Virus record (IMG/VR): IMGVR_UViG_3300045988_149043
Coordinates: 1-14,295 of that record
Origin: a virus
DNA length: 14,295 nucleotides
Direction: 5' to 3' (one strand)
The notes under the pieces were generated by a model. It had not been told where the DNA came from. It did not search any database and saw only the letters and a program-made list of their open reading frames with translations. This document shows positions 11,301 to 14,295 of the stretch, in pieces. A program made the position numbers and the translations under genes. Position 1 is the stretch's first letter. Every line of letters starts with the position of its first letter.

Positions 11301-11331
11301 AAAAATACCCCGTGCCATGACTGACACGGGG
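11301..11331 (-). terminator. Intrinsic terminator / attenuator after the major capsid gene
   Basis: On the - strand, stem CCCCGTG pairs with CACGGGG (plus-strand 11308-11314 and 11325-11331) with a 10-nt loop, followed by UAUUUUU (11307-11301). It lies between the capsid stop (11345) and the knob SD and start. Confidence 0.65.
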
Positions 11332-11344
11332 CTATTATTAAGAG

Positions 11345-12569: not shown

Positions 12570-12914
12570 TCATTTCTGTTCAGCGGGTTTGGGCGGCAAG
12601 ATAATGCTTGCAAGCACTTCTTTTGCGGTCTGCGGCTTTGGCTGTTCGGTCGCCGCAATATTCATGGTTTTAATCTGCGCACCCAGTGCATTGATTGCGG
12701 CGATAATGCCGTCTGCATCCTGTGCAGGTGCAGCGGGTGCAGTGGGTGCAGCAGGTGCAGCGGGTGCAGCGGGTGCAGCAGGTGCAGCGAGTGCAGCAGG
12801 TGCAGCGAGTGCAGCAGGTGCAGCGGGTGCAGCATTGTCAAGAGTGACAAGTTTTGCGAGGTCGTCTTTGGTGTAGCCTGCACGGCACAGAGCAATAATA
12901 TCATCAATATTCAT
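12570..12914 (-). CDS. Putative scaffolding protein with an Ala-Pro repeat linker (114 aa)
   Basis: SD AGAGGTG is upstream of ATG 12914. The gene is immediately upstream of the capsid gene, as phi29 gene 7 is, and is small. The N-terminus IDDIIALCRAGYTKDDLAKL and the C-terminus look helical, separated by (AAP/AAL)n. The call is positional. Confidence 0.5.
   Translation of the reverse strand: MNIDDIIALCRAGYTKDDLAKLVTLDNAAPAAPAALAAPAALAAPAAPAAPAAPAAPTAPAAPAQDADGIIAAINALGAQIKTMNIAATEQPKPQTAKEVLASIILPPKPAEQK
12722..12835. repeat. Tandem 9-bp repeat (GTGCAGCRR on the + strand), about 12.5 copies
   Basis: Read directly: GTGCAG, then GTGCAGCGG, GTGCAGTGG, GTGCAGCAG, GTGCAGCGG (x2), GTGCAGCAG, GTGCAGCGA, GTGCAGCAG, GTGCAGCGA, GTGCAGCAG, GTGCAGCGG, GTGCAGCAT. 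It encodes AAPAAPAALAAPAALAAPAAPAAPAAPAAPTAPAAPA in the scaffold candidate. Confidence 0.95.
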
Positions 12915-13129: not shown

Positions 13130-13281
13130 TATGCATCACCGTCCGTTTTGCTCATGTGCTCGCAGAGTTTTACGATAGCAGCGGTATTTTCTTTGATAGT
13201 CGTGTTACTCTGCCACCACATCAGCAAAAACGCCGCAATCGGGAAACCCACCTGCTGGATAATAGTACTGATTTCTTCCAT
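13129..13281 (-). CDS. YvrJ-like small membrane protein (50 aa), possible holin-like or lysis-associated peptide
   Basis: This ORF is below the track's size cut-off; I translated it by hand as MEEISTIIQQVGFPIAAFLLMWWQSNTTIKENTAAIVKLCEHMSKTDGDA. SD GAGGTG lies 6 nt upstream of ATG 13281. It has one hydrophobic segment, and the pattern vGFPI(x)nLL...L resembles YvrJ-family proteins (recollection). It is the first gene of the late operon. Confidence 0.5.
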   Translation of the reverse strand: MEEISTIIQQVGFPIAAFLLMWWQSNTTIKENTAAIVKLCEHMSKTDGDA

Positions 13282-13318
13282 GGTTTACACCTCGCTTTCA
13301 GGGGGGCGGACGGAATAC

Positions 13319-13399
13319 AAAAAGCGGGAAAAGACTCTTGACCCGCTACAAGGTCGTGCGCCGGATTCCGTCCGTATAGCTCGCGCATCTTTTCCCGCT
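13319..13399 (-). ncRNA. Candidate promoter-proximal structured RNA of about 80 nt (pRNA-like three-way junction, or a terminator/attenuator)
   Basis: Folded by hand on the - strand:
- Terminal helix: 12 bp, AGCGGGAAAAGA (13399-13388) with UCUUUUCCCGCU (13334-13323), followed by UUUUGUAUU.
- Hairpin 1: UGCGC/GCGCA plus CGGA/UCCG, with a 5' bulge GAGCUAUA.
- Hairpin 2: GACC/GGUC with loop UUGUAGCG.
- The bulge GCUAUA is complementary to the loop UGUAGC. Confidence 0.35.
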
Positions 13400-13402
13400 C
13401 TT

Positions 13403-13431
13403 ATAGTATCATATTTACTTGTTGGTGTCAA
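13403..13431 (-). promoter_or_regulatory. Near-consensus sigma-70/sigma-A promoter upstream of the late operon
   Basis: On the - strand: TTGACA (13431-13426), a 17-nt spacer, then TACTAT (13408-13403), with an extended -10 TG at 13411-13410 (TGaTACTAT). The predicted start is around 13396-13399. Confidence 0.7.
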
Positions 13432-13433
13432 GG

Positions 13434-13616
13434 TTAAAAATAAAATTTCCACTCCATATTGGGATTGACTAGCAGTGTATCAAACTCATGTTTTGCGAGT
13501 GCATAAGGCAAGTTACCATATTCACCGTTATAAATGCAACGGTCGTCATCATACACGCGAATACTTGTTTTAGGCTGCATTGACAGACACGCCCGGTAAA
13601 AGTCACTAATTGTCAT
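13434..13616 (-). CDS. Small right-arm early protein (60 aa), paralog of the 295-543 ORF
   Basis: ATG 13616 overlaps the upstream ORF's stop (ATGA). MTISDFYRACLSMQPKTSIRVY...GEYGNLP parallels ITPLDFYRMCYTLSPDIMVSVY...GEFRSMP in the left-arm ORF. Confidence 0.6.
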   Translation of the reverse strand: MTISDFYRACLSMQPKTSIRVYDDDRCIYNGEYGNLPYALAKHEFDTLLVNPNMEWKFYF

Positions 13617-13840: not shown

Positions 13841-14002
13841 TCAAATCTCCCGCACAAACTCGCGCTCGCACATGGTGCCAATGGCACTTGCAGGGATACG
13901 CTCAATAATAAGACTATGCCCTGTGTCGGTAAGATAATAACGATAGTTGCGGGTATCCACGATACGATTACAAATCAACTTTGCCATAAACTCTTTAGTC
14001 AT
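13841..14002 (-). CDS. Small right-arm early protein (53 aa), unknown function
   Basis: The A of ATG (14002-14000) is the innermost ITR-R base. The ITR-encoded SD GGGAGA lies 7 nt upstream. The track's longer ORF to 14062 starts inside the ITR with no RBS. Confidence 0.55.
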   Translation of the reverse strand: MTKEFMAKLICNRIVDTRNYRYYLTDTGHSLIIERIPASAIGTMCEREFVREI

Positions 14003-14295
14003 TTCAAATTCTCCCTTTCTGTGTCGGTGTGATGTATAGCGATATGTACCCTTATGGTACAATTATAGTATAGCACAAAGCACCTTGCAGGTACATGGAC
14101 TATATGACCATACTATGCACATTTGTATCATTCTTATAACTAGCAATTGTTACTATGTACACCGGCACACACTCCCCTGCCATGCTTGCAGGTGTGCGCG
14201 CACCATGGACATATGTTCGCAGGACATGTACAAGCAACTGTACAGAAATCTGTAACGGTGGGAACCGGAATATTACAGAATTCTGTCTACTACGC
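14002..14295. repeat. Right inverted terminal repeat (ITR-R), 294 bp
   Basis: Perfect reverse complement of 1-294. The inner boundary abuts the ATG (14002-14000, - strand) of the first right-arm ORF. Confidence 0.95.

What the first reader, a model, noticed from the sequence alone, without database searches (positions are those of the whole stretch)
13282..13433. Strong promoter followed by an ~80-nt terminator-bounded RNA with a three-way junction and complementary loops: candidate packaging RNA or late-operon attenuator
This is the only sizeable non-coding gap on the right arm (about 150 nt). It starts with a near-consensus promoter, TTGACA-17-TGaTACTAT.

The predicted transcript would begin within the 5' arm of a 12-bp helix, so 9-12 bp would remain pairable. 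That helix pairs AGCGGGAAAAGA (13399-13388) with UCUUUUCCCGCU (13334-13323) and is followed by a U-tract. The transcript could therefore end as an RNA of about 80 nt whose 5' and 3' ends pair with each other.

Inside the helix I can fold two hairpins. One has an asymmetric 5' bulge GAGCUAUA (13382-13375). The other has an apical loop UUGUAGCG (13351-13344). Bulge GCUAUA and loop UGUAGC can form 6 pairs, one of them G-U.

This layout (end-paired helix, three-way junction, a bulge loop complementary to a hairpin loop) is the established architecture of phi29 pRNA. pRNA bridges the portal and the gp16 ATPase, and its rings form through a 4-nt loop-loop pairing. This genome encodes gp10-like and gp16-like proteins. 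As far as I recall, pRNAs are documented only for Bacillus phi29 relatives, and they are longer (about 120-174 nt).

There is an alternative reading. The same hairpin would terminate both right-early read-through and transcripts from this promoter just ahead of the late genes, making it an attenuation or antitermination checkpoint.

A second 10-bp pairing interleaves with the first: CGGACGGAAU (13374-13365) with AUUCCGUCCG (13316-13307). The arm order is A-B-A'-B', which means either a pseudoknot or a mutually exclusive alternative fold.
Basis: partly seen in the sequence, partly recalled or inferred. Interest (0 to 1): 0.8.

Follow-up and report, generated by a model that had tools for sequence, protein, structure and literature searches.

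The report
Miniature pRNA-like RNA in gut phages
The flagged gap encodes a real, previously undescribed ~75-nt folded RNA that every relative of this small phi29-like gut phage carries. It has the same layout as the phi29 DNA-packaging RNA at about half the size, so it may be the first packaging RNA found outside Bacillus phages.

Summary
On the minus strand, a near-consensus promoter (13431-13403) starts a ~75-80-nt RNA. Helix P1 closes a three-way junction and is followed by UUUUU.

The fold is strongly conserved. Covariance models found it in about 130 related 13-14-kb phi29-like phage genomes. These include all ~104 IMG/VR relatives that contain the region. On 61 sequences, 96% of pair cells are paired and 23 of 25 pairs show changes on both sides.

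It occurs in 71 distinct sequence combinations. The apical loop CGGAA is almost invariant. Rfam has no match.

The topology equals that of phi29 pRNA, but the RNA is half as long. The portal and the full-length ATPase are phi29 gp10 and gp16 homologues.

The promoter at the base of P1 is conserved in most clades. The U-tract terminator is not.

The second pairing (13374-13366 with 13315-13307) also covaries, but only in about 40% of clades. Its partner always lies just upstream of the ribosome-binding site.

Best reading: a miniature pRNA-like packaging RNA co-transcribed with the late operon (about 0.42). Main rival: a cis-regulatory late-operon leader (about 0.3). Function is inferred, not shown.

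The parts
13403..13431 (-). Sigma-70-type promoter: TTGACA (13431-13426), 17-nt spacer, extended -10 TGaTACTAT (13411-13403). The predicted start is around 13399-13396, inside the 5' arm of P1.
   Evidence: 10 of 12 matches plus TG. A promoter in the same position relative to P1 is present in most clades. The hexamers are conserved while the spacer is only 65% identical.
13387..13400 (-). P1 5' arm (GAGCGGGAAAAGAU). It pairs with 13335-13322.
   Evidence: fold. All 12 modelled P1 pairs change on both sides across relatives. L011 carries a G-C to U-A swap and L008 a G-C to G-U change.
13383..13386 (-). P2a 5' arm GCGC. It pairs with 13361-13358.
   Evidence: 100% of cells are paired. The first pair G-C is invariant and the last pair C-G is 93% conserved.
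13375..13382 (-). 8-nt bulge GAGCUAUA on the 5' side only. GCUAUA (13380-13375) pairs with hairpin loop UGUAGC (13350-13345).
   Evidence: 71 distinct complementary combinations. In L008, A to G in the bulge and G to A in the loop both keep pairing. The A just 5' of P2b is 97% conserved.
13362..13374 (-). P2b hairpin: CGGA (13374-13371), apical loop CGGAA (13370-13366), UCCG (13365-13362).
   Evidence: All four stem pairs covary and 100% of cells are paired. The loop CGGAA is 98-100% invariant in 61 sequences. Rare variants are CAGAA, UGGAA and CGAAA.
13358..13361 (-). P2a 3' arm GCGC.
13340..13355 (-). P3 hairpin: GACCU (13355-13351), loop UGUAGC (13350-13345), GGGUC (13344-13340). It is flanked by J2/3 AC (13357-13356) and J3/1 AAGA (13339-13336).
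   Evidence: 4 of 5 pairs change on both sides. Junction nucleotides vary even among close relatives.
13322..13335 (-). P1 3' arm (GUCUUUUCCCGCUU).
13315..13323 (-). U-tract UUUUU plus GUAU. With P1 as the stem it looks like an intrinsic terminator.
   Evidence: It is 100% identical in 11 relatives while the adjacent linker is 77% identical. It is not conserved outside a few clades. Function as a terminator is inferred.
13307..13315 (-). 'Anti-P2b' segment UUCCGUCCG. It is complementary to CGGACGGAA (13374-13366), that is, the P2b 5' arm plus the apical loop.
   Evidence: One search shows 7-10 bp in all window-clade genomes. It covaries in other clades, for example AGCCGGA/UCCGGCU, GGCCGGA/UCCGGCC, CCCGGA/UCCGGG and AUCCCGG/CCGGGAU. 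It is present in about 40% of clades.
13279..13293 (-). Shine-Dalgarno GAGGUG (13293-13288) and ATG (13281-13279) of the first late gene (50-aa holin-like protein, 13281-13129).
   Evidence: One search matches phrog_4898, holin, E 6.7e-7.

Best explanation
The gap encodes a small structured RNA of about 75 nt between the P1 ends. It is a universal component of a very large family of 13-14-kb phi29-like phages from gut and rumen.

**How it is made.** It is transcribed from the strong promoter that also drives the late (lysis and structural) operon, and transcription starts at the base of closing helix P1. In the window clade, P1 plus UUUUU probably ends a fraction of transcripts. That would release a free RNA of about 75-80 nt, while read-through gives the late mRNA.

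**What I think it does.** I consider it most likely a miniature functional analogue of phi29 prohead RNA (pRNA).
- The 5'-side bulge of one molecule would pair with the P3 hairpin loop of the next, as the CE bulge and D loop do in pRNA, to build a ring on the prohead.
- The invariant CGGAA loop on the short distal helix, the counterpart of the pRNA E loop, would anchor it to the capsid/portal vertex.
- P1, the counterpart of the A helix, would dock the gp16-like ATPase.

**Shown:** the RNA, its fold, both long-range pairings, its universality, its promoter, and that the motor proteins are homologous to those of phi29.

**Inferred:** termination, release of a free RNA, intermolecular pairing, prohead binding and a role in packaging.
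For: 1. **Topology.** It is identical to the Rfam pRNA structure displayed on phi29. Both have a closing helix and a three-way junction. In both, the second helix is interrupted by a bulge on the 5' side only, and the 3' nucleotides of that bulge abut a 4-bp distal helix with a small loop. Both then have a third hairpin.
2. **Covarying bulge-loop pairing.** As in pRNA, the bulge is complementary to the loop of the third hairpin and the pair covaries. There are 71 combinations with a mean run of 4.31, against 2.6-2.7 in controls (0 of 2000; examples).
3. **Invariant distal loop.** CGGAA is invariant. In phi29 the E loop is the capsid-contact site (PMC8104870).
4. **Homologous motor proteins.** The ATPase family profile matches gp16 over its full length, NTD and CTD (7jqq, E 7e-25, positions 10-327 to 7-317). 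The portal matches gp10 (1h5w, E 6e-9). The genome also has a protein-primed PolB and 294-bp ITRs. In phi29 the ATPase docks through pRNA (PMC5066667).
5. **Universality.** All IMG/VR relatives that contain the region have it. It is visible down to 25-35% ATPase identity. That fits an essential part rather than an optional regulator.
6. **Stand-alone gene features.** The predicted transcription start is at the base of P1 in most clades. A terminator sits right after the element in at least three separate clades. These are the window clade (P1 plus U5), L202/L204 (promoter plus P1 plus U8) and the L108 group (a separate hairpin terminator).
7. **Gene neighbourhood.** In 71 co-oriented genomes the gene abuts the ATPase gene, with a median of 17 nt from the stop codon to P1.
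8. **No competitor.** No other structured non-coding candidate or pRNA-like hit exists in the genome.
Against: - There is no covariance-model homology to pRNA in either direction.
- The RNA is 63-90 nt, against 117-174 nt for pRNA. P2a is 4 bp against 9 for the C helix, P3 is 4-5 against 6, and P1 is 9-14 against about 25. By my own rough geometry a 5-mer ring would be borderline too small for a 6.6-nm connector end (dimensions from PMC12084888).
- The portal N-terminus is not basic. It reads MQAAPYMYDYINAEV, with no RKR.
- Most clades have no terminator after P1, so a free RNA would need processing.
- In the L021 clade the RNA lies inside the operon, after the holin gene.
- About 40% of clades keep a covarying pairing between the CGGAA loop/P2b arm and a site next to the ribosome-binding site. 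That looks cis-regulatory.
- The RNA is always on the late-gene strand, just upstream of late genes.
- Intramolecular pairing of bulge and loop cannot be excluded.
Confidence: 0.42

Rival explanations
1. Cis-acting leader of the late operon: an RNA switch or attenuator. The three-way junction, with an intramolecular bulge-loop pseudoknot, forms a compact domain at the 5' end of the late mRNA. A phage or host factor, or possibly a ligand, recognises it through the CGGAA loop. Binding or folding decides two things. One is whether transcripts stop at P1/U-tract, in clades that have one. The other is whether the P2b arm and loop pair with the 'anti-P2b' site next to the ribosome-binding site. Together these would set the timing or level of lysis and structural gene expression.
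For: - The element is always on the late-gene strand and directly upstream of late or lysis genes. The RBS lies 3-45 nt after P1.
- The promoter-element coupling is conserved.
- Two mutually exclusive pairings of the P2b 5' arm, with its own 3' arm and with the downstream site, both covary. That is the signature of a switch.
- Terminators occur after the element in some clades.
- When the early arm is inverted, the element stays with the late operon.
Against: - The anti-P2b site is absent from about 60% of clades, yet the RNA and the CGGAA loop are universal.
- The anti-P2b site lies downstream of the terminators, so it cannot control termination.
- It does not cover the Shine-Dalgarno sequence.
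- Junction nucleotides, where riboswitch pockets usually sit, vary even between near-identical genomes.
- The first downstream gene differs between clades: holin types, endolysin-like, CW_7-like.
- In distant clades about 100 nt, including a palindrome, separate the RNA from the first late gene.
Confidence: 0.3
2. 5'-end protective or processing element, in the manner of a 5' stabiliser or an exonuclease-resistant knot. A flush 5'-terminal helix, a compact junction tied by one or two pseudoknots, would shield the long late mRNA from 5'-end-dependent RNases (RNase J1/Y in Clostridia-type hosts). In the L021 clade it would shield the structural-gene part of that mRNA.
For: - The predicted transcription start is at the very base of P1 in most clades.
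- The loop-to-3'-tail pairing across P1 gives the A-B-A'-B' arrangement seen in exonuclease-resistant RNAs (own knowledge).
- The internal position in front of structural genes in the L021 clade still fits.
- Hosts are probably Clostridia. MAG bin labels are mostly Clostridia, Shine-Dalgarno sites are strong, and a CW_7-like protein is present.
Against: - A simple 5' hairpin would be enough for this role. It does not explain an invariant apical loop or a covarying bulge-loop pairing maintained over deep divergence.
- Terminators right after the element in several clades would defeat mRNA protection.
Confidence: 0.1
3. Processive antitermination RNA, in the manner of HK022 put or Bacillus EAR. 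The nascent structure binds the RNA polymerase that made it and lets it read through terminators inside the ~8.5-kb late operon.
For: - The element is promoter-proximal, and intra-operonic in the L021 clade, as put and EAR are (own knowledge).
- Terminator-like hairpins lie inside the late operon, for example 11332-11307 after the capsid gene.
- It is universal.
Against: - There is no resemblance to the two-hairpin put layout (own knowledge).
- It is odd for such an element to end in its own terminator (window and L202 clades).
- A conserved bulge-loop Watson-Crick pairing is not a known feature of put.
Confidence: 0.08
4. Trans-acting antisense regulator processed or terminated from the operon leader, in the manner of P1/P7 C4 or P4 CI RNA. 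The CGGAA loop and P2b arm would base-pair with the complementary site next to the RBS of the first late gene.
For: A covarying 6-10-nt complementarity exists between the loop/arm and a site 5-15 nt upstream of the Shine-Dalgarno sequence in about 40% of clades. That site is always downstream of the terminator where one exists.
Against: - The target site is missing in most clades.
- A genome-wide search for other targets gave only noise.
- There is no Rfam C4 match.
Confidence: 0.05

Closest known systems
phi29 prohead/packaging RNA (pRNA; Rfam RF00044)
   Same: - Encoded by a phage with protein-primed replication, a gp10-type portal and a full-length gp16-type ATPase.
- A closing helix formed by the 5' and 3' ends, with the transcription start at its base.
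- A three-way junction.
- A second helix interrupted by a 5'-only bulge (7-9 nt) whose 3' nucleotides abut a 4-bp distal helix with a small apical loop.
- A third hairpin whose loop is Watson-Crick complementary to that bulge, with covariation between phages.

   Different: - No detectable sequence or covariance-model homology.
- About 75 nt, against 117-174 nt. The helices are 4, 4-5 and 9-14 bp, against 9, 6 and about 25 bp.
- J2/3 is 2 nt and J3/1 is 4-5 nt, against UUU and 0.
- The bulge-loop pairing is 3-6 bp, against 4.
- The gene sits at the head of the late operon next to the ATPase gene, and is often co-transcribed with mRNA. It is not a stand-alone early gene at the genome end.
- The portal lacks the RKR N-terminus.
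- Intermolecular pairing and prohead binding are untested.
P1/P7 C4 and P4 CI antisense RNAs (own knowledge)
   Same: A small RNA derived from the leader of the operon it controls. The ends are paired, and a loop is complementary to a site near the RBS further down the same transcript.
   Different: The target site is present in only about 40% of clades. There is no RNase P-type 3' end and no Rfam match. This RNA also has an internal bulge-loop pairing and an invariant loop that those RNAs lack.
Three-way-junction riboswitch aptamers tied by a loop/internal-loop pseudoknot, for example THF-I (own knowledge)
   Same: A three-way junction closed by P1, with a hairpin loop pairing to an internal loop of the neighbouring helix. 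It lies in a 5' leader, and an alternative pairing reaches towards the RBS.
   Different: Junction nucleotides are variable and the apical loop is invariant, the opposite of a ligand pocket. The RNA is found only in one phage family. There is no Rfam match.
HK022 put / Bacillus EAR processive antitermination RNAs and flavivirus-type exonuclease-resistant RNAs (own knowledge)
   Same: A promoter-proximal or intra-operonic compact RNA in front of a long operon. The loop-to-3'-tail pairing across the closing helix resembles the second pseudoknot of xrRNAs.
   Different: The helix layout is different. There is no evidence of RNA polymerase or nuclease interaction. Some clades have their own terminator.

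Membership tests
phi29 pRNA (RF00044) | Encoded by a phi29-like phage: protein-primed PolB, gp10-type portal, gp16-type ATPase without a working nuclease. | tested here: met
   PolB phrog_1907. ATPase matches 7jqq at E 2e-10. The family profile matches gp16 residues 7-317 at E 7e-25. The portal matches 1h5w at E 6e-9. 294-bp ITRs.
phi29 pRNA (RF00044) | Match to the Rfam covariance model (sequence plus structure homology). | tested here: not met
   No hit at the gathering score or at E<=10 on the region, or at E<=5 on the whole window. The positive control, phi29, scores 145 bits. The reciprocal search with model R2 on phi29 found nothing significant.
phi29 pRNA (RF00044) | Topology: closing helix, three-way junction, helix 2 with a 5'-only bulge followed by a 4-bp helix and loop, then hairpin 3. 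| tested here: met
   The fold matches the structure line. It is supported by covariation.
phi29 pRNA (RF00044) | Size and helix lengths: 117-174 nt, A helix about 25 bp, C helix 9 bp, D helix 6 bp. | tested here: not met
   63-90 nt between the P1 ends, median 75. P2a is 4 bp, P3 is 4-5 bp and P1 is 9-14 bp.
phi29 pRNA (RF00044) | Bulge (CE) and hairpin-loop (D) sequences are complementary and covary between phages. | tested here: met
   71 distinct combinations. The mean Watson-Crick run is 4.31, against 2.70 and 2.56 in the two controls (0 of 2000 each).
phi29 pRNA (RF00044) | That pairing is intermolecular and builds a ring on the prohead. The RNA is required for packaging. | not testable with these tools
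   This needs native gels or AUC, trans-complementation of loop mutants, prohead RNA extraction, RNase sensitivity of packaging, and cryo-EM.
phi29 pRNA (RF00044) | A discrete small RNA with its own promoter and a defined 3' end. | tested here: inconclusive
   A promoter with its start at the base of P1 is present in most clades. A terminator right after the element is found only in the window, L202/L204 and L108 groups, plus a minority of U-rich tails (at least 5 U in 31 of 118 contexts). No expression data are available.
phi29 pRNA (RF00044) | Basic RKR motif at the portal N-terminus, needed for pRNA binding (PMC12084888). | tested here: not met
   The window portal starts MQAAPYMYDYINAEV. 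The family motif is non-basic. The phi29 N-terminus MARKRSNTYRS was verified. The cryo-EM work reports little pRNA-portal contact (PMC8104870), so the weight of this feature is disputed.
Intrinsic terminator / transcription attenuator | G+C-rich stem immediately followed by a U-tract. | tested here: met
   Window: GCGGG/CCCGC at the stem base plus UUUUUGUAU, invariant in 11 relatives. The stem encloses a 53-nt branched insert, so the simple scan (loop of 8 or less) does not list it.
Intrinsic terminator / transcription attenuator | Conserved in relatives, with a competing antiterminator structure formed before the terminator. | tested here: not met
   Most clades have no U-tract. The only conserved alternative partner lies 3' of the U-tract.
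Riboswitch | Highly conserved junction or internal-loop nucleotides forming a pocket, and occurrence upstream of functionally related genes in cellular genomes. | tested here: inconclusive
   Junction strands vary (R-N and N-N-R-A), while the apical loop is invariant. All loci found are phage contigs. Cellular genomes were not scanned with the RNA model itself.

The most novel reading that the evidence does not exclude
This is the first packaging RNA outside the Bacillus phi29 group. It would be a ~75-nt 'mini-pRNA' that is universal in a family of hundreds of 13-14-kb phi29-like phages of gut and rumen Clostridia and other hosts. It would be made as the 5' end of the late transcript and released by termination or processing. 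It would assemble on the prohead by bulge-loop kissing and dock the gp16-like ATPase. In about 40% of clades it would also pair with the late-mRNA leader, which could couple packaging capacity to late-gene translation.
Probability: 0.4. Interest if true: 0.9.

Novelty: new variant of a known kind. Interest (0 to 1): 0.8.

Why it matters
pRNA is the only known RNA that is an integral part of a viral DNA-packaging motor. Reviews state that it is unique to phi29 and its Bacillus relatives.

A covariation-proven RNA with the same topology at half the size has now turned up. It is universal in a very large, uncultured family of phi29-like phages whose portal and ATPase are homologous to those of phi29. 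That has three consequences.

- It makes the question 'do other gp16-type motors need an RNA?' directly testable.
- It gives dozens of natural sequence variants of the interlocking loops, which are useful for RNA nanotechnology.
- It bears on whether pRNA is an ancient or a lineage-specific invention.

If the RNA is instead a late-operon switch, it is still a new, deeply conserved phage regulatory RNA class with two covarying long-range pairings. It would sit in front of the lysis and structural genes of abundant gut phages.

Tried and rejected
- **Rfam.** The gathering-score scan and the permissive E-value scans of the region and the whole window gave only chance-level hits: sRNA-Xcc1 at E 0.67 and HCV_5BSL1 on an unrelated hairpin.
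- **Exact 16-mer scan of IMG/VR.** It found only the 10 close relatives plus about 20 chance hits in unrelated contigs. blastn found the element only in relatives more than 87% identical. Covariance models were needed to go further.
- **Genome-wide search for further antisense targets of the CGGAA loop/P2b arm.** 7-9-mers occur at chance level. Only the leader site is consistent.
- **CsrA-type GGA hairpin.** Rejected, because several clades have CAGAA.
- **Self-cleaving ribozyme (hammerhead, twister-sister).** Rejected. The junction strands are variable and there is no Rfam hit.
- **Small protein.** ORFs of 55 aa overlap the element (13285-13452 and 13221-13388). Rejected, because the substitutions are compensatory in helices and indels are frequent.
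- **AlphaFold model of the ATPase.** A profile search against PDB replaced it.
- **Supplements of the IMG/VR structured-RNA catalogue (PMC10690425).** They are not held, so I could not check whether this motif is one of its 10,006 anonymous candidates.
- **Ring-size geometry and cis-versus-trans feasibility.** I reasoned these by hand only and treat them as undecided.
Full report
**1. What the window is**

The 14,295-bp window is a complete linear phage genome with perfect 294-bp inverted terminal repeats.

- On the + strand it encodes a protein-primed family-B DNA polymerase (1023-3203), an SSB-like protein, and a 354-aa packaging ATPase (3733-4797).
- On the - strand it encodes a late operon. 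This runs from a 50-aa holin-like protein (13281-13129) through a scaffold-like protein, the capsid protein (12559-11345) and the upper-collar/portal protein (9243-8332), and continues to the last late gene, a 661-aa ORF ending at 4834.
- The ATPase is a homologue of phi29 gp16 (7jqq, E 2e-10). A profile of the family aligns with gp16 residues 7-317, covering both domains (E 7e-25).
- The portal is a homologue of phi29 gp10 (1h5w, E 6e-9) and of two other picovirus portals.
- The closest GenBank record is an unannotated human-faecal phage, MT835998.1, at 87% identity.

**2. Checking the observation**

The features, in order on the - strand, are:

| Feature | Coordinates | Sequence |
|---|---|---|
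| Promoter -35 | 13431-13426 | TTGACA |
| Extended -10 | 13411-13403 | TGaTACTAT |
| P1 | 13400-13387 with 13335-13322 | 14 bp |
| P2a | 13386-13383 with 13361-13358 | GCGC/GCGC |
| 5'-only bulge | 13382-13375 | GAGCUAUA |
| P2b | 13374-13371 with 13365-13362 | CGGA/UCCG |
| P2b apical loop | 13370-13366 | CGGAA |
| P3 | 13355-13351 with 13344-13340 | GACCU/GGGUC |
| P3 loop | 13350-13345 | UGUAGC |
| U-tract | 13323-13319 | UUUUU |
| Downstream segment | 13315-13307 | UUCCGUCCG |

The downstream segment is complementary to 13374-13366.

RNAfold returns exactly this three-way junction for 13318-13401. The energy is -35.1 kcal/mol and the z-score is -3.58. With longer flanks the z-score is only -1.2, so thermodynamics alone would not be convincing. 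Rfam has no match, at the gathering score or at permissive E-values.

**3. Comparative evidence for the fold**

I retrieved relatives in three ways: with the capsid protein (35 IMG/VR loci), with an ATPase alignment (more than 534 IMG/VR relatives, of which the best 80 were fetched), and from GTDB genome contigs (68 contigs binned into MAGs).

Ten close relatives carry an almost invariant copy. The RNA is 97.2% identical in pairwise comparisons, the promoter spacer 65% and the linker to the RBS 77%. The few changes fall into three groups:
- in junction strands;
- compensatory changes in helices (L011 G-C to U-A in P1, L008 G-C to G-U);
- changes that keep the bulge-loop pairing (L008, bulge A to G and loop G to A).

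A covariance model built from these sequences (R1) found diverged copies. Two rounds of rebuilding (R2, R3) then found the element in all IMG/VR relatives that contain the region. The only four negative loci are contigs cut off before the region. R3 also found it in 41 of the 68 MAG-binned contigs, down to about 35% ATPase identity. By eye the same fold follows the ATPase stop codon in relatives at 25-34% identity.

On 61 distinct sequences:
- 96.2% of pair cells are standard pairs, against 60.7% after shuffling;
- 23 of 25 pairs show changes on both sides;
- the covariation score is 0.94, against 0.23 for shuffles and 0.10-0.17 for slid registers;
- P2a and P2b are paired in 100% of cells.

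These alignments were fitted to the model, which favours the structure. The size of the effect and the slid controls leave no doubt.

**4. The two long-range pairings**

*Bulge to P3 loop.* The 3' part of the bulge is complementary to the P3 loop in every clade, with different sequences. Examples are GCUAUA/UGUAGC, GAACA/UGUUC, GGACA/UGUCC, GAGU/ACUC, GACC/GGUC, UGUGC/GCACA, GUCCA/UGGAC, AGUCA/UGACU, GAAACA/UGUUUC and UUGCA/UGCAA. Over 71 distinct bulge/loop combinations the longest strict Watson-Crick run averages 4.31. Shuffled loops give 2.70 and partners permuted between sequences give 2.56 (0 of 2000 in both tests).

Where it is present, the segment lies between P1 (or a terminator) and the Shine-Dalgarno sequence, and it covaries with the P2b 5' arm. 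Examples are CGGACGGAA/UUCCGUCCG, AGCCGGA/UCCGGCU, GGCCGGA/UCCGGCC, CCCGGA/UCCGGG and AUCCCGG/CCGGGAU. This pairing competes with P2b. Because it lies 3' of the U-tract, it cannot be an antiterminator.

**5. Consensus and context**

Near-invariant positions are:
- the first and last pairs of P2a (G-C and C-G);
- an A after P2a;
- C-A at the 3' end of the bulge, paired with U-G in the P3 loop;
- the apical loop CGGAA (98-100%; rare variants CAGAA, UGGAA, CGAAA);
- the first P3 pair G-C;
- one A in J3/1.

The junction strands are otherwise variable. The RNA is 63-90 nt between the P1 ends, with a median of 75.

A near-consensus sigma-70 promoter, often with an extended -10, ends 0-6 nt before the model hit in most clades. 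That places the transcription start at the base of P1. In 71 genomes where the early and late modules are co-oriented, P1 starts a median of 17 nt after the ATPase stop codon, so the promoter overlaps the end of the ATPase gene.

Where the early module is inverted (the window clade, the L021 clade, L167/L172), the RNA stays with the late operon. In the L021 clade the holin gene lies between the promoter and the RNA.

A terminator directly after the element is found in only a few groups:
- the window clade (P1 plus U5);
- L202/L204 (promoter plus P1 plus U8);
- the L108 group (a separate hairpin terminator);
- a minority of other contexts with U-rich tails.

**6. Interpretation**

Three things are shown.
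- This is a new, deeply conserved structured RNA.
- It heads the late transcript.
- It has two covarying long-range pairings.

Its function is not shown.

I displayed the Rfam pRNA structure on phi29 itself. It reads:
- A helix;
- C helix, 9 bp;
- a 9-nt bulge on the 5' side only, whose last nucleotides abut the next helix;
- a 4-bp E helix with a small loop;
- UUU;
- D hairpin;
- back to the A helix.

The new RNA has exactly this order of elements, including the one-sided bulge, the 4-bp distal helix and the covarying bulge/hairpin-loop complementarity. That complementarity is the hallmark of pRNA (PMC5066667).

In the phi29 cryo-EM structure the E loop is the capsid-contact site, and the prohead-binding domain is 74 nt (PMC8104870). 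The invariant CGGAA loop occupies the E-loop position.

phi29 gp16 docks through pRNA, and the ATPases here are full-length gp16 homologues. Taken with the element's universality and its stand-alone promoter/terminator arrangement in several clades, this makes a miniature pRNA analogue the single most likely function. I put it at about 0.42.

Several things count against it:
- no covariance-model homology in either direction;
- half the size;
- by my own rough geometry, a ring that would be borderline small for a 6.6-nm connector end (dimensions from PMC12084888);
- a non-basic portal N-terminus in place of RKR;
- no defined 3' end in most clades;
- the internal position in the L021 clade;
- the leader-directed second pairing.

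The main rival, at about 0.3, is a cis-acting late-operon leader or switch in which the bulge-loop pairing is an intramolecular pseudoknot. Lesser rivals are a 5' protective knot, a put/EAR-like antitermination RNA and a C4/CI-like antisense RNA.

There the U-tract is invariant, but it is not a conserved property of the family.

**7. Novelty**

Reviews state that pRNA is unique to phi29 and related Bacillus phages (PMC11476376, PMC5066667). I found no paper describing this RNA.

A 2023 catalogue lists 10,006 anonymous candidate structured RNAs from IMG/VR. It highlights four highly expressed gut-phage RNAs of 64-86 nt and does not mention pRNA (PMC10690425). This motif may be among them, but the supplements are not held, so I could not check.

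I rate it a new variant of a known kind: pRNA-like in architecture, not a demonstrable member of the pRNA family. If the pRNA analogy fails, it would be a new class.

Noticed in passing
window 1-294 and 14002-14295: Perfect 294-bp inverted terminal repeats. The window is a complete linear genome of the protein-primed type. The 73-aa ORF 13841-14062 runs into the right repeat.
   Followed up: partly
window 3674-3708 (+): A very stable 14-bp hairpin (AAAAGGGCGGCGG...CCGCCGCCCUUUU, z-score -5.5) with A- and U-tracts on either side, just upstream of the ATPase gene. It looks like a bidirectional terminator inside the early arm. PMC10690425 mentions candidate structured RNAs upstream of Podovirus_gp16 genes.
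   Followed up: no
window 4799-4829 and 11307-11332 (-): A strong terminator-like hairpin lies where the early (+) and late (-) transcription units converge. Another lies directly after the capsid gene inside the late operon.
   Followed up: no
window 12570-12914 (-): The scaffold-like 114-aa protein has a long (P/A)-rich repeat linker (PAAPAALAAPAAL...). Its ends are conserved in distant relatives while the linker length varies.
   Followed up: no
L021, L023, L025-L028 (for example L025:22-344): In this clade the holin-like gene sits between the late promoter (TTGACA-16-TATACT) and the RNA. The gene after the RNA encodes a CW_7-like (KWGNG) cell-wall-binding protein.
   Followed up: partly
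L108, L109, L113-L115, L118, L120, L100, L107 (about 3-40 nt after the RNA): A separate canonical terminator hairpin (AGGCGGU...ACCGCCUGUUUUAUU) lies between the RNA and the anti-P2b site and RBS.
   Followed up: partly
L194, L195, L201 (about 60-110 nt after the RNA): A perfect palindrome ATGTCAATTATTGACAT lies just upstream of the first late gene's RBS, in distant relatives binned with Bacteroidales MAGs. It is possibly an operator.
   Followed up: no
L144-L211 (GTDB genome contigs): Whole 12-14-kb phage genomes of this family are binned into MAGs of many taxa. Most are Clostridia (Acutalibacteraceae, Acetatifactor, Christensenellaceae, Ruminococcus), but some are Prevotella, Bacteroidales, Treponema and Alphaproteobacteria. 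Bin labels are therefore weak host evidence, and these contigs contaminate the MAGs.
   Followed up: no
portal N-termini, window 9243-9150 (-) and relatives: A conserved non-basic N-terminal motif, (A)PxxYDYIN...PSTVHxxNTxL, replaces the RKR-rich N-terminus of phi29 gp10. The most distant relatives (L193, L194, L206) have basic N-termini instead.
   Followed up: partly
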